DNA from: Acidobacteriota bacterium
Lineage (GTDB): Bacteria; Acidobacteriota; UBA890
Length of the DNA: 64,000 nt
NCBI GenBank assembly: GCA_002731215.1
Contig: PCAP01000060.1
Span: 97 to 64,096, forward strand
Direction: 5' to 3'
Part shown: positions 14,249 through 63,903 of the stretch, one piece after another
How the letters are laid out: the number at the start of each line of letters is the position of its first letter
How positions within the stretch are numbered: the first letter of the stretch is position 1
Program-made: the position numbers and the translations under genes
The notes under the pieces: generated by a model
Database searches by the model: none
The model's input: the letters and a program-made list of their open reading frames with translations, nothing else
What the model was told of the DNA's origin: nothing

Positions 14249-15538
14249 CTAGAAGGCTGTCGGACGGCGTGGTCGTCGACTGCGGCGAGTGGGAGCAGGT
14301 TTGATTCCAAAACTACTCGCCACATCAGGGACGTTCATGGACACCCTTCGTACAACCTCAAGCAACTCCTCAGCAGGTTCTGCTGGGAGGCCTTCAGGAA
14401 CTACGCGAAGGTGAACAGGGGAGAGTGCAACAGCGTCGATGATCGTCGCCCAGCGGTCCTGGCTGATCTGAGAGGTGAGGCTGGCATTTGCTGCTTCGGC
14501 AAGGCGATCTAGCTCAGCTGGCGGTAGGGGAGCGCCGGCTTTGGGCGGCCTTGAACTAAGGCGCAACGCACGTACGATCCGACCCGAATCGAGCGTGCTG
14601 CGGACCTCGTTCATCCATTCCGTGTGTTCTCGATCAACCCTTGTTGCGAGTTCTTCCCGTAGCTTCCCAGCGAGTTCTCGTGTCTCGTCGCTTCGTGCTG
14701 CCGTGTCGGATGCGACGACAACGGAGCGAAGGTCGCGCAAATCAACCTCGGCGATACCAGTTAGGGCTGCCTCTGCACGGTCATGCCAGTCGGCTGTCCG
14801 CAGCGAAGGATAGATTCTCTCGCCGAGTTGAACTAGGAGACTCGTCGGAATCTCCGGCTCACCTGCCTCCAAAGCGGCCTTGTTCTGTGCCTCAACTGTG
14901 TCGCGCAGTCCCGGGATGCCACCACGTGCCAGAATTTGTCCAATCAGGTGCAGTTCTTCCGGTAAAGCTGCCAAGGCGGCCTTGCGGTGTTTCCTACGTG
15001 GCCGCAGGCGTTTCGGCTTCGGTGGGCCTTCGGTGGCGGTGGAGGGGCTAGCAGTAGCACCTTTACGTGAACGACGCCTGCTGGACTCCTTCTTCTTGTT
15101 GCTCGACCCCGTTTCGCCATCACTCCTAGTACTTTGACTCCGCTCACCGCGTTCTTTGCGCCGACCCTTCCCATCCTTTCCGTCTCTACGGCGACCTCTG
15201 GGCTTGTCGTCACTGTGTGGGCTTTCACCCTTACGACCAGAGCGTCCCTTTTTCGCAAGCGTTGTGATGACCTGAGGTTCGTTGCGTCCGCTGCCAAGGA
15301 TTTCGAGAAGGTCAGGCTGATCACTGCCGGCCTTTGGTAGAAGCAATGCTGTGATCTCGAGGCCATCCAAAAATTGTTCGGTTTCAGCACGGAGCTGATC
15401 GCCCACTGCTGCGCCAGTGGGAAGAAGACTGCCATCGAGGGTTCCTCGTGGCTCTCGAGCCCCTGCGGCCCTCCAGGTCCAGGATCCGTCGTCGCGGCTA
15501 CTTGTCAGTTCGATCTCGATACGTGGCATGGCCCACAA
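14249..15538 (-). CDS. conserved hypothetical protein with a central Arg/Lys/Ser-rich low-complexity linker of about 110 aa
   Basis: 429-aa ORF with coding-like composition. The N-terminal and C-terminal globular parts are joined by KKGRSGRKGESP...RLRPRRKHRK. The start abuts the AT-rich island. Confidence 0.5.
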   Translation of the reverse strand: MWAMPRIEIELTSSRDDGSWTWRAAGAREPRGTLDGSLLPTGAAVGDQLRAETEQFLDGLEITALLLPKAGSDQPDLLEILGSGRNEPQVITTLAKKGRSGRKGESPHSDDKPRGRRRDGKDGKGRRKERGERSQSTRSDGETGSSNKKKESSRRRSRKGATASPSTATEGPPKPKRLRPRRKHRKAALAALPEELHLIGQILARGGIPGLRDTVEAQNKAALEAGEPEIPTSLLVQLGERIYPSLRTADWHDRAEAALTGIAEVDLRDLRSVVVASDTAARSDETRELAGKLREELATRVDREHTEWMNEVRSTLDSGRIVRALRLSSRPPKAGAPLPPAELDRLAEAANASLTSQISQDRWATIIDAVALSPVHLRVVPEGLPAEPAEELLEVVRRVSMNVPDVASSFGIKPAPTRRSRRPRRPTAF

Positions 15539-15655
15539 CGCTAGCCGTAAGGAAGGGGATGGCTACTTGAAGGCAACTACTTTGATTGTTCAAATCCACC
15601 ACTTGTGTAGATAATGTATATTATCATCTATTCCAATAGTTGAAGATCAGGGACT
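15539..15655. promoter_or_regulatory. AT-rich (about 30-35% GC) divergent intergenic island between the 14249-15538 gene and the xer-like gene
   Basis: There is a sharp GC drop relative to the roughly 60% GC flanks. It contains TTGATT and TAGATAAT/TATATTAT promoter-like hexamers and the dif-like palindrome. Confidence 0.6.
15604..15631. other. dif-like 28-bp candidate Xer recombination site (11-6-11): tgtgtagataa-tgtata-ttatcatctat
   Basis: The central hexamer TGTATA and inner arms ATAA/TTAT are identical to the E. coli dif core (CATAA-TGTATA-TTATG). The arms are partially palindromic (GATAA...TTATC). It lies 24 bp upstream of a XerC/D-type recombinase gene. Confidence 0.4.
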
Positions 15656-16690
15656 ATGGAGCAAATGGCCTACAGGGTTCTCCCAGAGACTGAGGACATG
15701 TCAGCCGTCTTTCATGAATGGCTTGCAGACTTGCCGCTGTACGAGGACAAGCCGCCTAACACGATTCGCGCCTACAGCCAGGGAGTCCGAAGGCTCGTGT
15801 CTCACGCAGGCGTAGCTCCAAGTTCCTTTGCTCCTGATGCTCTTGACCAAGCACTCCTTACAGATGCCGTACGGGAAATGCGGGCGAGCGGAGAGGTCTC
15901 CAAGGCGACCCTCAACCAAAGCCTCGCTGCTCTTCGATCCTTCTTTGACTGGTGCCTCACTAAGCGCCTTGTGGACACTGTCCCTGACATCGGCCGAATT
16001 CGAAAACTGGCCAAGTTGGAAGTTCCACAAGTGGATCCTGAGTACTTTCGGCCTGGCGAAATTCGGGATCTCTATATTGCAGCCACCGAGCCCGGCGACC
16101 GGTCAAGCCGCGTCCGCTGGGCGTCCAGGGACCTCGCAATGTGTGCATTTCTTGCGGTTCTAGGGCTGCGGGCCTCCGAGTTGACGGACGCTGACATTGG
16201 CTGGGTGACACGCGAGCGCCTAGATGACCTAGCAGGAAGAGCTACATGGATGATGCAGGTCCTTGGAAAGGGACGCAGGATTCGCCACCTTCCACTCTCA
16301 CCCGAACTCATCGATGCCAACACCCTTTGGCAAGCAGAACGTGAGGACCGATTTGGCGTAGCTCGTTCCGACGATCCCTTGTTCCTCACCAATGATGGCG
16401 AACGGTTCAACTATCGCCGACTCAGGTACTGGCTCCTTACCCTTAACCGGCAGGCAGGCTTGCGCAATCGTTCTTTGCATTCGCTTCGGCACACGGCTGG
16501 TGTTCAGTTGGCTTCTGACGGCGTTCCCATGAACGTGATTCAAAGTCTCCTGGGACATGCCAGCATTACGACCACTGGGATTTACACAGCGATTGCGGGT
16601 GGTGAGCTGGTCGGAGTCGTAGCGAGATCTGGGGCTAACACACTCCTTGGTGACACACTCAAAGGTGACTCCAAGGATGTTGGAGGATGA
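15656..16690 (+). CDS. tyrosine site-specific recombinase, XerC/XerD-like
   Basis: N-terminal SAM-like core-binding domain (TIRAYSQGVRRL). Catalytic residues are R in the ASELTDADI region, HSLRHT (H-x-x-R) and LLGHASITTTGIYT (H...Y), closely resembling Xer LLGHSDLSTTQIYT. Confidence 0.8.
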   Translation: MEQMAYRVLPETEDMSAVFHEWLADLPLYEDKPPNTIRAYSQGVRRLVSHAGVAPSSFAPDALDQALLTDAVREMRASGEVSKATLNQSLAALRSFFDWCLTKRLVDTVPDIGRIRKLAKLEVPQVDPEYFRPGEIRDLYIAATEPGDRSSRVRWASRDLAMCAFLAVLGLRASELTDADIGWVTRERLDDLAGRATWMMQVLGKGRRIRHLPLSPELIDANTLWQAEREDRFGVARSDDPLFLTNDGERFNYRRLRYWLLTLNRQAGLRNRSLHSLRHTAGVQLASDGVPMNVIQSLLGHASITTTGIYTAIAGGELVGVVARSGANTLLGDTLKGDSKDVGG

Positions 16691-17235
16691 GCAGGACAAC
16701 AAAGGCACGTTTGCTGGTTGCCGCACCTGAGTTGGCTGATCCGAACTTCTTCAGGACCGTCCTCCTCATGGTCGAACACAACGGTGAAGGTGCTCTCGGA
16801 TTGGTGCTGAATCGACCTCTTCTAGTTTCCGCGGCTGAGGCTGTTCCCCATTGGGCAGGCCTCATTGAGCCACCGGGACTACTGCACTCGGGTGGTCCGG
16901 TATCTCAGGGGTCAATCGTGGGCCTCGGCCTGGCTCCGGAAGGTGGGCATCCATGTGTGACTCCCCTGCTTGGACCTCTCGGCGTAGTTGACCTTCACGG
17001 TCATCCTGAACAAGCCTCTGGCATCTCCTCAATTCGACTCTTTTCGGGCTATTCGGGCTGGTCTGCAGGTCAACTGGAGGAGGAGCTGGCGGTGGGATCT
17101 TGGTTTGTCCTAGAGGCACAGCCGTTAGATGCAACATCGACGGACCCGCAAGGGCTGTGGTCGGCAGTACTTGCCCGGCAGACAGGTCTCCTCGGTCAGA
17201 TGGGCGCCTATCCGGATGACCCATCGGTCAACTGA
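16687..17235 (+). CDS. YqgE/AlgH family protein (UPF0301/DUF179)
   Basis: 182 aa with an N-terminal LLVAAPELADPNFFRTVLLMVEHN motif characteristic of YqgE/AlgH. ATGA overlap with the recombinase. Confidence 0.75.
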   Translation: MSRTTKARLLVAAPELADPNFFRTVLLMVEHNGEGALGLVLNRPLLVSAAEAVPHWAGLIEPPGLLHSGGPVSQGSIVGLGLAPEGGHPCVTPLLGPLGVVDLHGHPEQASGISSIRLFSGYSGWSAGQLEEELAVGSWFVLEAQPLDATSTDPQGLWSAVLARQTGLLGQMGAYPDDPSVN

Positions 17236-19276: not shown

Positions 19277-19972
19277 ATGTCCTCTGAGGGTGGGCCGCCA
19301 GTTCTGTTGCTTCATGGGTTCGGGACGTCGTACCAAACCACTTGGGAAAACAGTGGATGGACGTCTCTACTGGCAGATGCCGGTCGAGATGTCATACCGG
19401 TCGACCTGCTGGGTCATGGAAACGCGCCAAGGCCCACGGATCCCGAGGCCTACCAGGATCTTGAGGGGAAAGTCCTTTCGACGATTCCGGAAAGACCAGT
19501 AGACGCGATTGGGTTTTCTATGGGTGCTCGAGTACTGCTGGTATTGGCCTCGACCTGTCCTGCAAGATTCAACAGGCTAGTTGTTGCTGGTGTTGGCAGG
19601 AACCTTTTCGAGGATGATCCGGCAAGGAGCAGAGCCATCATTGAAGCTGTCCGGACTGGACAAGCCGAGGACCCTGAGCTCTCATACTTTGCTCGACTGC
19701 CTGAGTCTCCTGGTGCCGACAGGGAGGCACTGGTAGCGTTTCTCAGCCGTCCCGATCCTCCTGCTGTGACTGAGGAGAGTTTGGCTGCGGTAACAGCGCC
19801 GGTTCATGTGGTCCTAGGTGACGAAGACTTTGCCGGCCCCCCTGACCGCCTTGTAGCTGCCCTGCCCAACGCGACACTTACAACCTTGTCTGGCGTGGAC
19901 CATTTTGCGACTCCAGAAAATTTTGGTTTCATCGACGCTGCTCTGGAGTTCATAGACGCCCAACCGTTCTAG
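19277..19972 (+). CDS. alpha/beta hydrolase fold protein
   Basis: HGFG oxyanion motif (LLLHGFGTS) and nucleophile elbow GFSMGA. Confidence 0.75.
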   Translation: MSSEGGPPVLLLHGFGTSYQTTWENSGWTSLLADAGRDVIPVDLLGHGNAPRPTDPEAYQDLEGKVLSTIPERPVDAIGFSMGARVLLVLASTCPARFNRLVVAGVGRNLFEDDPARSRAIIEAVRTGQAEDPELSYFARLPESPGADREALVAFLSRPDPPAVTEESLAAVTAPVHVVLGDEDFAGPPDRLVAALPNATLTTLSGVDHFATPENFGFIDAALEFIDAQPF

Positions 19973-58036: not shown

Positions 58037-58812
58037 CTGGCACCCACATTTTGCTCGAGTGTGAAGAGACGTCCTAAGTCTTGAACCTCGTCGTCTACTC
58101 CAGCCAGTCTCAACATGTGCCATATGAGCGCGAGGTTGCTCGATACGACAGGCTTGCCCATGCGGTGTTCAATATCTGTAACCACTCCGAAGGTTCTGAG
58201 ACTGGTACAGGAGACGAATACCGCCTCGCATACGTCAGCCCCACCCACACGGACTGCGGCGTCGGCTACAGCCTGCTCTGAAATCCTTGCGACCAGGTGG
58301 TCATCTGGTTCAAGAAAAGAAGCTACGGCTACCACCTCGATACCGACAGACTCGAAGTGCCCGACTATGCGGCGTGTCACATCAGCCGTGTAGGGAGTGA
58401 CCACACCGATTCTTTGAACCCCAAGAGCGGTAAAGGCAGCAACAGCTGCTTTGATGGGATTGGTAGATGGCACCCCAGGGTGGGCCGAGTCGAATGCTGC
58501 CTCAACGGCAGGCTCACCTATGAGGGTGGCTGCCGACGTGCAACCGTAACCGATGGCATCCAGTTTGAGTTCAATGGGAAGCAGGGACGCCGCCAGAGGC
58601 AACCTCTCCTCCATAGCTGTCAAGGTTTCAGGGGTGACTGTGGCATCGTTGGCTATTCGCGCGATGTAGTGCGTTACCTCTTTTATCCGAATTTCTCGAA
58701 GTTCAGCCTCAAGTGTGTGATCGGACTCCAGGACGACAACTCCCAGTTTTGCGCGCCTGCCAAGACCCTCATCCGTTGTGAACTCGAGTTGGACTAGGTC
58801 AAGTTCGCTCAC
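58033..58812 (-). CDS. Asp/Glu/hydantoin racemase superfamily protein (maleate isomerase / arylmalonate decarboxylase / EutA-like)
   Basis: Two catalytic Cys contexts, GYGCTSA and VFVSCTSLRT, match the maleate isomerase motifs. Confidence 0.7.
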   Translation of the reverse strand: MSELDLVQLEFTTDEGLGRRAKLGVVVLESDHTLEAELREIRIKEVTHYIARIANDATVTPETLTAMEERLPLAASLLPIELKLDAIGYGCTSAATLIGEPAVEAAFDSAHPGVPSTNPIKAAVAAFTALGVQRIGVVTPYTADVTRRIVGHFESVGIEVVAVASFLEPDDHLVARISEQAVADAAVRVGGADVCEAVFVSCTSLRTFGVVTDIEHRMGKPVVSSNLALIWHMLRLAGVDDEVQDLGRLFTLEQNVGAS

Positions 58813-59681
58813 ATGTCCACCGTGTAGAGCTCCTGTTGGTTGAAAAATGATGCCCCCGTGGGTACTTCTGGATACTCCATCTCAACGTCAGTGCATCTCA
58901 ACCGGTTGGTGGCTTCGCCCCGCAGTACCTCACCTTCGTAGATAGATGGTACGTGACAGACCTGTAGTGGCTTGCAGTCCTCGGCCTTGTACCCACAGAT
59001 GAACACAGTGCGAGGCTGATCTGAAAGATTTGGCATCGATCCATGCAGGGTGCGCCCATGCATGAGAGCCGCTGACCCGGATGATCCTAGGATTGGGACC
59101 CTTAGAGCACTTGCTTTTTCGAGCACGGAGTTTGAAACAGTGCCTGTGAACACCCCGTCATGCCAGTGGTCATACAGGGGTCCTCTGTGGCTGCCAGGTA
59201 CGACTTCAAGCGGGCCGTTTTCCTTAGTTATCTCATCGATGAAGTAGAGCACGGTGATCATGTCATCGTTGGTGTGGGGCTCGAAAAGGAAGTCCTGGTG
59301 CCACTTCACTTCAGTACTTGTGCCAGGCAACTTGGAATTCACCTTGGAGTGACCGAACGCCACGTTCGGTCCGATCAGTTGGGCCACCGCGTCTACAGCG
59401 AGACACGAACGCATAACGTCAAGGTAGGCGTCTGACAGTTCAATGGGGGAAGCAACGCGTCGTATGGCAGGTGTCTCTGCGGTGTGACCGGGCTCCAGAT
59501 CAAAACGAGGTCTTCCATCCTGCATGTGGCCATATGGTTCGGTGTGGGAACGGCTTTCGTCGATCCATCCCTCAAACTCAACTGCCAAGGTCGCAATCTT
59601 CTCAACGGGCACCGCATTTTCGAGCAGCAGGTAGCCGTTACTCCAAAATGAGTCGATCTGTGCCTGATCCAAAACCTGCAT
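58809..59681 (-). CDS. phytanoyl-CoA dioxygenase (PhyH) family Fe(II)/2-oxoglutarate oxygenase
   Basis: H-x-D...H facial triad context (KWHQDFLF...PGSHRG). The start was set at MQVLDQAQIDSFWSNGYLLLEN; the ORF can extend to 59843. Confidence 0.7.
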   Translation of the reverse strand: MQVLDQAQIDSFWSNGYLLLENAVPVEKIATLAVEFEGWIDESRSHTEPYGHMQDGRPRFDLEPGHTAETPAIRRVASPIELSDAYLDVMRSCLAVDAVAQLIGPNVAFGHSKVNSKLPGTSTEVKWHQDFLFEPHTNDDMITVLYFIDEITKENGPLEVVPGSHRGPLYDHWHDGVFTGTVSNSVLEKASALRVPILGSSGSAALMHGRTLHGSMPNLSDQPRTVFICGYKAEDCKPLQVCHVPSIYEGEVLRGEATNRLRCTDVEMEYPEVPTGASFFNQQELYTVDM

Positions 59682-59900
59682 CTCGAGACTCCAAACACTT
59701 GAATTTGGTAGCCGGCTCAGCGCTACACTACCGCTTCCTTTTTGCTGCAGCCACGTGCCGTTTGCGTCTGAAGGGCGTCTTGGATATTTCAAATAGTGCT
59801 GGGTGAATCCACGAGCCCTGCCGAAATACGTACAAGCCATCACTGATTCCTGTCCGTTTTCTGCGTTGCGACTGGATCAGACATTGGTCAGACTGTTCAA

Positions 59901-62780: not shown

Positions 62781-63380
62781 CTAACTGACGGCTTCAGTTG
62801 AGCCGAAATCCACTGGCCATTCTGTCTTCTTATCAACTTTTACCTTGCTGAGGTTTGCTCCGGCAAGGTCCGCTCCAGCAAGGTTCGCTCCGGCAAGGTC
62901 CGCTCCGAAGAGGTCTGCTCCTTTGAGGTTCGCCCCTTCGAGGTCCGCGTAAAAGAACTTCGTTCCTCTGAGTTGCGCTCTCTCGAACTGTGCCCATTTG
63001 AGGAGCCCATAGCCAAACACCGCCAAGCAAAGATTTGCTTCGTTTAGGTTCGCCGAAACAGACTCTGCCAAGAATAGGTTTGCACCGTTGAGGTTCGCTC
63101 CTGCAAGGTTCGCTCCTGCAAGGTTCACACCTTCAAGATTTGCCGCTCTGAGATTCGCACCCTTGAGGATCGCCCCTTGAAGGGTTGCACCTTTGAGATT
63201 CGCGTCTTTAAGGTTGGCCCCTTCGAGTATCAGGCCTTCAAGAAGTGCCCTGTGGAGGTTTGCACCGTTGAGGTTCGCTCCTGCAAGGTTCGCTCCTGCA
63301 AGGTTCACACCTTCAAGATTTGCCGCTCTGAGATTCGCTCCCGGCCTGATCTTGTAGCCGTTGACTTCCACGGCCTCCAC
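62781..63380 (-). CDS. pentapeptide repeat protein (Qnr/MfpA-like size)
   Basis: 199 aa, almost entirely A(N/D)LxG/ANLxx pentapeptide repeats. It contains an internal 28-aa duplicated block. Confidence 0.85.
   Translation of the reverse strand: MEAVEVNGYKIRPGANLRAANLEGVNLAGANLAGANLNGANLHRALLEGLILEGANLKDANLKGATLQGAILKGANLRAANLEGVNLAGANLAGANLNGANLFLAESVSANLNEANLCLAVFGYGLLKWAQFERAQLRGTKFFYADLEGANLKGADLFGADLAGANLAGADLAGANLSKVKVDKKTEWPVDFGSTEAVS
63076..63338. repeat. exact 83-bp direct repeat (copies 63076-63158 and 63256-63338) inside the first pentapeptide-repeat gene
   Basis: Both copies read identically: aggtttgcaccgttgaggttcgctcctgcaaggttcgctcctgcaaggttcacaccttcaagatttgccgctctgagattcgc. Shorter ~24-bp blocks (ccctagtcaggttcgccc type) also recur at 63536-63640 in the second gene. 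Confidence 0.8.
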
Positions 63381-63414: not shown

Positions 63415-63903
63415 CTAGTCGAAGGTCACTCCGGCGGCTTCCAAGTCAAGCCCCTCAGGCCAGATCGTACCCTCGTCAGCTCCCATCCCTTTAAGGTTCG
63501 CCCCGGTGAGGTTCGCCCCAGTGAGGTACGTCCCTTCGAGGTTCGCCCTAGTCAGGTTCGCCCTAGTCAGGTTCGCCCAGGTGAGGTTCGCCCCTTCGAG
63601 GTTCGCCCTAGTCAGGTTCGCCCTAGTCAGGTTCGCCCTAGTCAGACTCATAAATGTGAGGTCGGCACCGGTAAGATTCGCCCTGAAGAGGTGAGCCCCT
63701 TCGAGGTTCGCCCTAGTCAGGTTCGCCCCGGTGAGGTATGCCCCGGTGAGGTATGCCCCGGTGAGGTTTGCCCCTTGGAGGTTCGCCCCTTCGAGATTCA
63801 CCCTGGTGAGGTTCACCCTGAATAGGTACGCCCCTTTAAGGTTTGCCCCTTTAAGGTATGCCCCTGGTTCGATCTCGTAGCTGTTGATCTCCACAACAAG
63901 CAC
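63415..63903 (-). CDS. pentapeptide repeat protein, tandem paralogue
   Basis: 162 aa of ANLT(R/G)ANL pentapeptide repeats. The N-terminus (VVEINSYEIEPGAYLKGANL) parallels the downstream paralogue (VEVNGYKIRPGANLRAANL). Confidence 0.85.
   Translation of the reverse strand: MLVVEINSYEIEPGAYLKGANLKGAYLFRVNLTRVNLEGANLQGANLTGAYLTGAYLTGANLTRANLEGAHLFRANLTGADLTFMSLTRANLTRANLTRANLEGANLTWANLTRANLTRANLEGTYLTGANLTGANLKGMGADEGTIWPEGLDLEAAGVTFD

What the first reader, a model, noticed from the sequence alone, without database searches (positions are those of the whole stretch)
15539..15700. dif-like Xer recombination site in an AT-rich island directly upstream of a XerC/D-type recombinase gene
The 28-mer tgtgtagataa-tgtata-ttatcatctat (15604-15631) has the 11-6-11 architecture of Xer/dif sites. 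Its central hexamer is identical to E. coli dif (TGTATA), with conserved ATAA/TTAT inner arms and palindromic GATAA...TTATC. It sits in the window's only strongly AT-rich stretch, 24 bp before a tyrosine recombinase with Xer-like catalytic motifs (HSLRHT, LLGHASITTTGIYT). In most bacteria, including actinobacteria, xerC and xerD are not adjacent to dif. A recombinase sitting next to its cognate site is the hallmark of single-recombinase systems (XerS/difSL, XerH/difH, archaeal XerA) or of integrated elements that hijack Xer. Alternatively, the palindrome is an operator in the divergent promoter region and Xer is autoregulated. Either way this is an undescribed arrangement for an actinobacterial-type genome.
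Basis: partly seen in the sequence, partly recalled or inferred. Interest (0 to 1): 0.7.

Follow-up and report, generated by a model that had tools for sequence, protein, structure and literature searches.

The report
Xer-like recombinase with adjacent dif site
A 28-base, partly palindromic DNA site sits directly in front of a recombinase gene, and the pair is conserved across uncultured Acidimicrobiales, so it is most likely a self-contained system for separating joined sister chromosomes, an arrangement not yet described for actinobacteria.

Summary
TGTGTAGATAA-TGTATA-TTATCATCTAT lies at 15604-15631. It is unique in the window, sits at the window's lowest-GC spot, and ends 24 bp (more likely 33 bp) before a 344-aa tyrosine recombinase gene.

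Comparative data show it is not chance. All 40 related Acidimicrobiales loci carrying an ortholog (46-81% identity) have one 11-6-11 site just upstream, in the same orientation. Three more distant orthologs (34-36%) in the same gene neighbourhood have one too. The inner arms are invariant, the 6-bp centre varies, and site variants follow the recombinase tree. Deep-branching lineages have near-perfect inverted arms.

The protein has the full catalytic set and a Xer-type fold, closest to XerA and XerH. It scores far below the XerC, XerD, XerA and XerS family cut-offs. The site lacks the canonical actinobacterial XerD arm.

The locus is housekeeping, with no tRNA, no second site and no mobile-element genes. 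It lies 4 kb from a significant GC-skew polarity switch.

The best reading is a lineage-specific dif-xer module of the XerS/XerH type, probably with a single recombinase.

Not shown: that XerC/XerD are absent, that the site is single-copy genome-wide, or any recombination activity.

A YqgE/AlgH gene is translationally coupled to the recombinase in 32 of 33 loci.

The parts
15604..15631 (+). 28-bp core recombination site (dif-like). Left arm 15604-15614 TGTGTAGATAA, centre 15615-15620 TGTATA, right arm 15621-15631 TTATCATCTAT.
   Evidence: Searches show that it is there and unique. Searches show one homologous site upstream of every ortholog. Positions 6-11 (AGATAA) and 18-22 (TTATC) are invariant in 28 distinct sites, the centre is variable, and the left arm is better conserved than the outer right arm.
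15656..16690 (+). Xer-like tyrosine recombinase gene (344 aa from ATG 15656; the likely true start is ATG 15665, giving 341 aa).
   Evidence: Pfam Phage_integrase plus SAM-like N-terminal domain. NCBIfam XerC 125 bits and XerD 116 bits, against cut-offs of 335 and 330. R172, K205, H275, R278, H301 and Y310 are invariant in 33 homologs. AF2 pLDDT is 89, and the best PDB folds are XerA and XerH.
16687..17235 (+). YqgE/AlgH (DUF179) gene whose start overlaps the recombinase stop (ATGA). It is a possible partner, and its role is inferred only.
   Evidence: Pfam DUF179 and NCBIfam YqgE/AlgH. It lies directly downstream on the same strand in 32 of 33 loci with enough sequence, mostly with a 4-nt stop/start overlap, including orthologs at about 35% identity.
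15539..15603 (.). Upstream non-coding stretch. It holds the conserved ATCCACC (15594-15600) just left of the site, a mini-ORF ATG-GCT-ACT-TGA (15559-15570) with a Shine-Dalgarno-like AGGAAGGGG, and GCTAGC (15540-15545) in the leader of the divergent gene. It presumably contains the promoter(s).
   Evidence: Searches show these elements conserved within the window's clade. No sigma-70-type promoter is predicted. Function is unknown.

Best explanation
The 28-mer is the cognate core site of the recombinase encoded right after it. Together they form a vertically inherited dif-xer module of Acidimicrobiales.

Inferred mechanism, by analogy with XerS/difSL, XerH/difH and Cre/loxP:
- One recombinase monomer binds each arm. 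The inner GATAA/TTATC bases are common to both arms, and the outer bases are lineage-specific.
- When sister chromosomes are fused into a dimer, the two copies of the site pair.
- A tetramer exchanges the strands in two steps across the asymmetric 6-bp centre and returns monomers.
- Control by FtsK at the division septum is likely but untested.
- Near-perfect inverted arms in deep-branching lineages suggest that a single recombinase serves both arms.
- The site lies 9-72 bp before the start codon, so occupancy probably also represses the gene's own transcription.
- The translationally coupled YqgE/AlgH protein may be an accessory factor.

Shown here: anatomy, conservation, linkage, co-inheritance of site and protein, an intact active site, a Xer-type fold, a housekeeping context, and a local GC-skew switch.

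Inferred only: binding, recombination, dimer resolution, single-recombinase status, FtsK control, autoregulation, and any AlgH role.
For: 1. Linkage. All 40 of 40 loci with an ortholog (46-100% identity, GC 0.43-0.71) carry one site upstream in the same orientation. Orthologs at 34-36% identity in the same neighbourhood also carry an ATAA-N6-TTAT site.
2. Anatomy typical of tyrosine-recombinase core sites. The layout is 11-6-11, the inner arms are invariant, and the centre is variable and asymmetric. Arms match 10 of 11 as inverted repeats in L163, L165 and L171, and 9 of 11 (my count from the printed site) in L166.
3. Site variants, in both arms and centre, map onto recombinase clades.
4. Uniqueness. 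There is one site per locus in 357 kb of Acidimicrobiales DNA, scoring 23-45 bits against 13.5 bits or less for anything else off the site itself; the site's own reverse strand reaches 18.4. In the metagenome pattern scan, by my count 17 of about 22 hits in DNA of at least 55% GC sit in front of the recombinase gene; itself reports 17 recombinase-linked hits among 144.
5. Protein. The catalytic R-K-H-R-H-Y residues are invariant. It is a two-domain simple recombinase whose best folds are XerA and XerH, and its best PDB sequence hits are XerD and XerA.
6. dif hallmarks (PMC2731167). The site is non-coding and the lowest-GC spot of the window. The cumulative G-C maximum is at 19,826, which is 4.2 kb away, with a change-point permutation p of 0.0036. 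Eleven consecutive + strand genes lie on the left and six consecutive - strand genes on the right of the 13-20 kb zone.
7. The housekeeping neighbourhood (pafA, pafBC, tatAC, helY, thyX ... gltDB, trk) has no tRNA gene.
8. XerS/difSL was discovered from this same signature (PMC1914069).
Against: Only 64 kb of the genome is available. Single-copy status genome-wide, the global GC-skew maximum, and the absence of XerC/XerD and of a canonical dif are therefore all untested.

Much of the GC-skew signal tracks gene orientation. After correction the replication component is weak: GC3 skew of + strand genes is -0.113 on the left against -0.142 on the right, and of - strand genes +0.175 (only 3 genes) against +0.069. 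Several related loci show a plateau and no switch. Conserved gene order also makes the loci non-independent.

A cultured member of the class, Acidimicrobium ferrooxidans, has a predicted canonical-type dif at its skew shift point, so the class is not uniformly non-canonical.

In the crown group the arms are asymmetric, with a well-conserved left arm and a variable outer right arm. That is the pattern also seen in two-recombinase XerC/XerD sites.

There is no experimental evidence.
Confidence: 0.6

Rival explanations
1. The site is a two-recombinase dif. This protein binds the well-conserved left arm, like XerD. A second Xer paralog encoded elsewhere binds the variable right arm. The system would then be a divergent XerC/XerD-type system that happens to have one xer gene next to dif.
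For: Arm conservation in the crown group is asymmetric, with TGTCAAGATAA in 19 of 28 sites against a variable outer right arm. A. ferrooxidans appears to have a canonical-type dif, so XerC/XerD exist in the class. A NUDIX gene lies nearby, as it does next to xerD in mycobacteria (plus my own recollection of the mycobacterial gene order).
Against: Deep-branching lineages have arms matching 9-10 of 11 as inverted repeats, which fits one protein on both arms. The protein is equidistant from XerC and XerD and far below both cut-offs. There is no second recombinase in the window. The known single-recombinase sites difSL and difH also have imperfect arms (PMC9765430).
Confidence: 0.15
2. The site is a regulatory element only. 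The palindrome would be an operator, or a pair of -10-like boxes, controlling the recombinase gene and sometimes the divergent gene. Real recombination would happen elsewhere or not at all.
For: The site lies 9-72 bp before the start codon. GATAAT and ATTATC resemble -10 hexamers. The site resembles Fur-type GATAAT repeats, from my own knowledge.
Against: Conservation covers 11-bp arms with an exact 6-bp spacer and a free centre, not a -10/-35 layout. No sigma-70 promoter is predicted. No other copy exists upstream of any other gene in 357 kb, so this is not a regulon operator. The arms change together with the recombinase lineage. In most lineages the region is not a divergent promoter. A second, real recombination site elsewhere would recombine with this copy.
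Confidence: 0.08
3. The site is one end of an excision, inversion or integration system. A partner site would lie outside the window, as in a domesticated element or a developmental excision like XisA/nifD. Alternatively the site serves mainly as an attachment site for mobile elements.
For: The recombinase gene abuts a site, as in integration modules (PMC1914069). One high-GC phage contig carries a look-alike site in an intergenic region. L171 has two overlapping sites.
Against: There is no partner site within 15 kb to the left or 48 kb to the right. Housekeeping gene order is conserved on both sides down to 35% identity. There is no tRNA, and no phage, transposon or conjugation gene turned up among the roughly 30 window genes scanned against Pfam. 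The phage match has no demonstrated link to Acidimicrobiales and is within chance expectation for that scan.
Confidence: 0.1
4. The site is a chance AT-rich palindrome in an intergenic region.
For: Short AT-rich palindromes are common in intergenic DNA, and most metagenome pattern hits were chance matches in AT-rich genomes.
Against: None of 100 shuffles contain the 28-mer. The site is conserved in position, orientation and register in more than 40 loci across GC 0.43-0.71, while the flanks diverge.
Confidence: 0.01

Closest known systems
XerS/difSL of streptococci and lactococci (PMC1914069)
   Same: The site lies immediately upstream of its recombinase gene and forms one conserved module. 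The module sits in the GC-skew shift region. The arms are imperfect inverted repeats. It was found through the same comparative signature.
   Different: The protein is not a XerS ortholog (NF003462 scores 52 bits against a cut-off of 267). The centre is 6 bp, not 11 bp, and the site is 28 bp, not 31 bp. The phylum differs. xerS is monocistronic, whereas here the gene is translationally coupled to algH. Single-recombinase status is proven for XerS and untested here.
XerH/difH of Campylobacter and Helicobacter (PMC2731167, PMC5241119)
   Same: It is a single Xer recombinase usually linked to its site. The site has two conserved inverted repeats around a variable hexanucleotide. XerH is among the best structural matches (5jjv, 5jk0).
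   Different: Sequence similarity is marginal (PDB phmmer E=5e-4). The arm sequence differs, and the phylum differs.
XerL/dif of Legionellales (PMC9765430)
   Same: It is a lineage-specific divergent Xer that homology searches had missed. Its arms are long uninterrupted inverted repeats, like the deep-branching sites here.
   Different: xerL lies more than 400 kb from dif, or on a plasmid, whereas here the two are always adjacent. No IMEX is known here.
Archaeal XerA/dif
   Same: It is a single simple tyrosine recombinase. XerA (5hxy) is the top structural hit and the second-best sequence hit.
   Different: NF040815 scores 94 bits against a cut-off of 220. This is a bacterial lineage.
Canonical actinobacterial XerC/XerD with dif (e.g. 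Frankia CACGCCGATAA-TGCACA-TTATGTCAAGT; PMC3025954)
   Same: The layout is 11-6-11 with a GATAA...TTAT inner core. The presumed function is the same. The phylum is the same.
   Different: The outer arms do not match in either orientation, and there is no TTATGTCAAGT arm. The protein scores about 120 bits against cut-offs of about 330. In the canonical system the xer genes are not next to dif.

Membership tests
dif site (generic hallmarks, Carnoy & Roten 2009, PMC2731167) | About 28-31 bp, with two inverted-repeat arms around a 6-8 bp less conserved centre | tested here: met
   The 11-6-11 layout holds in all related sites. The inner arms are invariant and the centre is variable.
dif site (generic hallmarks) | Intergenic, with G+C lower than the genome | tested here: met
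   The site is non-coding, and its GC of 0.23-0.34 is the window minimum against a window mean of 0.56.
dif site (generic hallmarks) | Single copy per chromosome | tested here: inconclusive
   There is one copy in the 64-kb window and one per locus in 357 kb. The rest of the genome is not available.
dif site (generic hallmarks) | Located at the replication terminus (cumulative GC-skew maximum) | tested here: inconclusive
   The local maximum is at 19,826, which is 4.2 kb from the site, with change-point p=0.0036. Gene orientation converges. The signal is partly explained by gene orientation, only 64 kb is seen, and some related loci plateau.
dif site (generic hallmarks) | Recombined by its Xer recombinase on chromosome dimers, under FtsK control | not testable with these tools
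   This needs binding, cleavage and in vivo resolution assays.
Canonical XerC/XerD | The protein reaches the equivalog cut-off of TIGR02224 (XerC) or TIGR02225 (XerD) | tested here: not met
   It scores 125.2 bits against 335.15, and 115.6 bits against 329.6. PGAP names cluster members only 'tyrosine-type recombinase/integrase'.
Canonical XerC/XerD | The site carries the conserved XerD arm (TTATGTNAANT; actinobacterial TTATGTCAAGT) | tested here: not met
   There is no match in either orientation beyond GATAA/TTAT.
Single-recombinase dif-xer module (XerS/XerH type) | The site is physically linked to the recombinase gene throughout the lineage | tested here: met
   All 40 of 40 loci show it, plus the orthologs in L166, L169/L170 and L171.
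Single-recombinase dif-xer module (XerS/XerH type) | Only one Xer recombinase in the genome, sufficient for recombination | not testable with these tools
   There is no second recombinase in the window.
Single-recombinase dif-xer module (XerS/XerH type) | Orthology to XerS, XerA or XerH | tested here: not met
   XerS scores 52 bits against 267, and XerA 94 bits against 220. XerH has PDB E=5e-4. The family forms its own cluster: 19 representatives have E<1e-30, and below them only generic hits appear.
Simple tyrosine recombinase (Xer-like) | Core-binding plus catalytic domains, no arm-binding domain, and the catalytic residues R-K-H-R-H-Y | tested here: met
   Pfam domains. R172, K205, H275, R278, H301 and Y310 are invariant. 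The AF2 model has pLDDT 89, and its best folds are XerA, XerH, IntI, Cre and XerD.
IMEX or integrated mobile element | Two site copies bracketing foreign DNA, with mobile-element genes or a tRNA target | tested here: not met
   There is a single site and no tRNA. The flanks are conserved housekeeping genes.

The most novel reading that the evidence does not exclude
Acidimicrobiales resolve chromosome dimers with an independently evolved single-recombinase system. Its recombinase is produced in fixed proportion with a YqgE/AlgH (DUF179) protein that acts as a dedicated accessory or control subunit of the recombination. This would give that widespread family of unknown function its first molecular role. 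It would also provide an alternative or addition to FtsK control.
Probability: 0.15. Interest if true: 0.8.

Novelty: new variant of a known kind. Interest (0 to 1): 0.58.

Why it matters
Chromosome dimer resolution is nearly universal, yet only four non-canonical systems are described: XerS, XerH, XerL and XerA. This would be another one. It would be the first in Actinomycetota, in an order abundant in the oceans and known almost only from metagenomes.

It offers a compact 28-bp site plus one gene that can be tested directly in E. coli or in vitro. The site could mark replication termini in Acidimicrobiales MAGs. The natural series from near-perfect to asymmetric arms could show how recombinase and site co-evolve. 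The invariant coupling to a YqgE/AlgH gene suggests a testable function for that protein family.

Four literature searches found no description of this system for Acidimicrobiia.

Tried and rejected
- A search for strand-skewed oligomers that flip at the site (KOPS-like) was uninformative. The top hit, AGGTTCGC, is a 15-bp periodic repeat inside pentapeptide-repeat genes.
- The metagenome scan with TGTCAAGATAA-N6-TTATCA returned mostly chance matches in AT-rich DNA. It was useful only after filtering by GC.
- The viral scan gave 23 hits, nearly all AT-rich chance matches. One high-GC phage has a look-alike site, but there is no link to Acidimicrobiales and no match in the phage database. It is not used as evidence.
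- The Rfam, tRNA and promoter/terminator scans of the region found nothing.
- No canonical actinobacterial dif is present in the window.
- The idea that positions 1 and 6 of the centre covary (T..A or C..G) holds in the first 18 loci but fails in deeper lineages (CTTAGA, CTGCTC, CGTATC). I dropped it as a general rule.
- A 344-aa ORF at 58809-59843 gave a weak tblastn hit but is a PhyH dioxygenase, not a paralog.
- Comparing GC skew left and right of the site across loci is not independent evidence, because gene order is conserved.
- I could not establish whether XerC/XerD exist in the same genomes.
Full report
**1. Observation**

The sequence TGTGTAGATAA-TGTATA-TTATCATCTAT is at 15604-15631 on the + strand. 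It has no second copy in the window at up to 3 mismatches, and none of 100 shuffles contained it. The ATAA-N6-TTAT core occurs once against 0.07 expected. The site is the lowest-GC spot of the whole window at 40, 60 and 100 nt scales.

It ends 24 bp before ATG 15656 of a 344-aa ORF. Orthologs start at MAYR/MTYR, and a 341-aa member of the same 90% cluster exists. The real start is therefore probably ATG 15665, 33 bp after the site.

The ORF has the Phage_integrase and SAM-like N-terminal domains.

**2. Organism and gene neighbourhood**

The closest relatives are all uncultured Acidimicrobiales or Acidimicrobiia MAGs, mostly marine.

- To the left of the site lie pafA, pafB, pafC, a signal peptidase, tatA, tatC, a HelY-type helicase, an M20 peptidase, thyX, a GNAT acetyltransferase and a NUDIX hydrolase, all on the + strand.
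- These are followed by an enoyl-CoA hydratase and a 426-aa protein of unknown family on the - strand.
- The site comes next, then the recombinase and a YqgE/AlgH (DUF179) gene on the + strand.
- Further right are an RNase T-like exonuclease (-), an MFS transporter and a hydrolase (+), and then gltD, gltB, trkH, trkH, trkA and a 5-formyltetrahydrofolate cyclo-ligase gene on the - strand.

There is no tRNA gene in the window and no second tyrosine recombinase. No phage, transposon or conjugation gene appeared among the roughly 30 genes scanned. The same gene order surrounds orthologs down to 35% identity. This is a stable chromosomal locus, not an island.

**3. Conservation of the site**

In the window and all 17 genome loci there is exactly one AGATAA-N6-TTATC site, always on the recombinase strand just upstream of the gene.

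Adding loci from the metagenome pattern scan and from look-ups of distant homologs gives 40 loci that encode an ortholog (46-100% identity). All 40 have the site, and there are 28 distinct 28-mers.

- Positions 6-11 (AGATAA) and 18-22 (TTATC) are invariant.
- The left arm is TGTCAAGATAA in 19 of the 28 sites. The window's clade has TGTGTAGATAA, and a low-GC clade has TTTAAAGATAA.
- The outer right arm is variable (TTATCAWnnAY).
- The 6-bp centre is free (TGTATA, CGAATG, TGGAGA, CGTGCG, CGGCGG and others).

Still more distant orthologs (34-36% identity) in the same neighbourhood have other arms around the same ATAA-N6-TTAT frame:
- TAAATAAATAA-CGTACA-TTATTTATTAT in L166
- AGTCTGGATAA-TAGGGG-TTATCACGTAA in L169
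- ATTCAGGATAA-TCCTTC-TTATCCAGAAT in L171

On a neighbour-joining tree of the recombinases, arm types and centre types fall into clades, so site and protein are inherited together. A matrix scan of 357 kb of Acidimicrobiales DNA finds one site per locus at 23-45 bits. Apart from the site's own reverse strand (up to 18.4 bits), nothing else scores above 13.5 bits.

Most of the 120 metagenome pattern hits are chance matches in AT-rich DNA. One search finds the recombinase in 17 of 144 hits. By my count of the listing, these are 17 of about 22 hits in DNA of at least 55% GC, each with the gene immediately downstream.

**4. What the anatomy implies**

The site has two 11-bp inverted elements, an exact 6-bp asymmetric spacer and a free centre, and its arms change with the protein lineage. 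This is the anatomy of a tyrosine-recombinase core site. It does not look like a promoter or a regulon operator.

In four deep-branching lineages the arms are near-perfect inverted repeats: 10 of 11 in L163, L165 and L171, and 9 of 11 (my count) in L166. This is what one expects if a single protein species occupies both arms, as in Cre/loxP or XerL/dif (PMC9765430). In the crown group, which includes the window, arm symmetry is only 5-7 of 11. The left arm there is better conserved than the right. That pattern is seen both in single-recombinase sites and in XerC/XerD sites, so it does not decide the question.

**5. The protein**

R172, K205, H275, R278, H301 and Y310 are invariant in an alignment of 33 homologs down to 32% identity. 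The AlphaFold model is confident (pLDDT 89). Its best PDB neighbours are XerA, XerH, the integron integrase, Tn1549 Int, Cre and XerD. By sequence, the best PDB hits are XerD (E=8e-11) and XerA.

The protein is nevertheless not a member of any named Xer family by the curated thresholds:

| NCBIfam model | Score (bits) | Cut-off (bits) |
|---|---|---|
| XerC | 125 | 335 |
| XerD | 116 | 330 |
| XerA | 94 | 220 |
| XerS | 52 | 267 |

In an exhaustive HMMER search of 1.84 billion representatives, only 19 clusters score below E=1e-30. Below them comes a continuum of generic Xer-like proteins at about 80-115 bits. The nearest full-length clusters outside the original set turned out to be orthologs in the same neighbourhood (P0148, P0151), or truncated paralogs without the catalytic tyrosine in other contexts (P0146, P0147).

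**6. Relation to canonical dif**

The accepted actinobacterial dif (Frankia CACGCCGATAA-TGCACA-TTATGTCAAGT; PMC3025954) shares only GATAA...TTAT with this site. The XerD arm is absent in both orientations, and no canonical dif is present in the window.

The identity of the centre with E. coli TGTATA is coincidental.

The supplement of the same paper predicts a canonical-type site for Acidimicrobium ferrooxidans (..GAGAA-GCGGTA-TTCTGTCAAGT) at 0.5 degrees from its skew shift point. At least one cultured member of the class therefore seems to use the classical system. This keeps open the possibility that the genomes studied here also carry XerC/XerD.

**7. Terminus**

Cumulative G-C rises by about 14 per kb up to 19,826 and then falls by about 15 per kb to the end of the window. 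A change-point test on shuffled 1-kb blocks gives p=0.0036. Eleven consecutive + strand genes precede the 13-20 kb zone, and six consecutive - strand genes follow it. This is the pattern of a replication terminus, and the site lies 4.2 kb from the maximum.

The evidence is suggestive, not decisive.
- Total skew largely follows gene orientation, and the orientation-corrected third-position signal is in the right direction but small.
- Only 64 kb is visible.
- Related loci show the maximum 0-5 kb to the right of the site, or a plateau.
- Those loci are not independent, because gene order is conserved.

**8. Mechanism proposed**

The recombinase binds both arms of the site. On a chromosome dimer the two copies synapse, and two pairs of strand exchanges across the 6-bp centre restore monomers. 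This is inferred by analogy with XerS/difSL, XerH/difH, XerL and XerA.

XerS/difSL was discovered from exactly this signature, a conserved recombinase gene preceded by a conserved roughly 50-bp sequence in the skew-shift region (PMC1914069).

A single site per chromosome can do nothing productive except recombine with a sister copy or with an incoming circle. This makes dimer resolution the simplest function for a conserved, single, housekeeping-embedded site.

The site lies 9-72 bp before the start codon. In most lineages it follows a co-directional solute-binding-protein gene, several of which end in hairpin plus T-run sequences that I read by eye. The promoter must therefore overlap or abut the site, so autoregulation by occupancy is likely. 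That is an inference, since no sigma-70-type promoter is predicted.

**9. Rivals**

| Reading | Estimate |
|---|---|
| Two-recombinase dif, with a partner encoded elsewhere | 0.15 |
| End of an excision, inversion or attachment system, with a partner site outside the window | 0.10 |
| Purely regulatory palindrome | 0.08 |
| Chance | 0.01 |

The arguments for and against each are given in the rival entries.

**10. Novelty**

Four literature searches found no description of a Xer system or dif for Acidimicrobiia. The known non-canonical systems are XerS, XerH, XerL and XerA.

The arrangement is a new variant of a known kind. It has the same module logic as difSL-xerS and difH-xerH. It differs in having an unrelated recombinase family, its own site, a new phylum, and a conserved translational coupling to a YqgE/AlgH gene (32 of 33 loci).

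**11. Limits**

No whole genome of the clade could be read. Single-copy status, global terminus position, and the absence of XerC/XerD and of a canonical dif are all open. No biochemical claim is shown.

Noticed in passing
window 16687-17235 (start overlaps the recombinase stop at 16687-16690, ATGA): A YqgE/AlgH (DUF179) gene is translationally coupled to the recombinase gene. It lies directly downstream on the same strand in 32 of 33 loci with enough sequence, including orthologs at about 35% identity. It is a possible accessory factor. The family has no established molecular function.
   Followed up: partly
window 15550-15570: A mini-ORF ATG-GCT-ACT-TGA (Met-Ala-Thr-stop) is preceded by a strong Shine-Dalgarno-like AGGAAGGGG. 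It is conserved with synonymous changes (GCG, ACC) in L001, L006 and L013. Its function is unknown.
   Followed up: no
window 15540-15548 and 14249-15529 (-): ACGCTAGCC, which contains the palindrome GCTAGC, is conserved in the 5' leader of the divergent 426-aa gene (MPRIEIELTS..DGSWTWRAAGARE, with a basic low-complexity linker). It is also present in L169 and L171. The protein has no Pfam, NCBIfam or PDB match, yet it is syntenic across the order.
   Followed up: partly
window 15594-15600; loci L003-L017 upstream of the site: ATCCACC lies 3-4 bp left of the site in the window's clade. A GGGGATCC-like motif lies at variable distance (15-45 bp) in other clades. It could be a promoter element, a terminator tail or an accessory site.
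   Followed up: no
L171 9934-9982: Two overlapping core sites lie in front of one ortholog: TTTTGTAGATAA-CGGATG-TTATATTCAGG and ATTCAGGATAA-TCCTTC-TTATCCAGAAT. The first has arms of the window's type, and the second has arms of its own clade.
   Followed up: no
L145 9830-9852 (identical in L148, L150, L152, L156; IMG/VR contigs, GC about 0.6): A phage contig carries TGTCAAGATAA-TGGACA-TTATCAGCACA in an intergenic region between a GP88-like gene and a terminase-small-like gene. It could be an attachment site that mimics the chromosomal site, or a chance match. The host is unknown, and there is no match in the phage database.
   Followed up: partly
P0146 (L174) and P0147 (L172): These are truncated paralogs of the recombinase family (33-37% identity) that lack the catalytic tyrosine and other active-site residues. 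They sit in other contexts, one of them next to a pentapeptide-repeat gene, and have no site and no algH. They may be non-catalytic relatives, and their genome of origin is unknown.
   Followed up: partly
window 62781-63380 (-) and 63415-63903 (-): Two adjacent pentapeptide-repeat protein genes carry a 15-bp periodic DNA repeat. AGGTTCGC occurs 24 times in the window against 2 expected, with 19 of the copies lying between 62,881 and 63,786.
   Followed up: yes
left arm of the site in most relatives (TGTCAAGATAA): The 7-mer TGTCAAG is the same as in the canonical actinobacterial XerD arm TTATGTCAAGT, but it is inverted relative to the ATAA/TTAT core. This may be coincidence or a relic, and it is not interpretable with the present data.
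   Followed up: no
P0118, P0133; L166 about 170 bp upstream of the annotated start: Some deep-branching orthologs have an N-terminal extension with a Rho_N-like domain or a Lys/Arg- and Cys-rich stretch (MPKRKNRKLRTLDCEYEGCGGPC...). The 540-560 aa versions in other clades may just be miscalled starts that read through the site.
   Followed up: no
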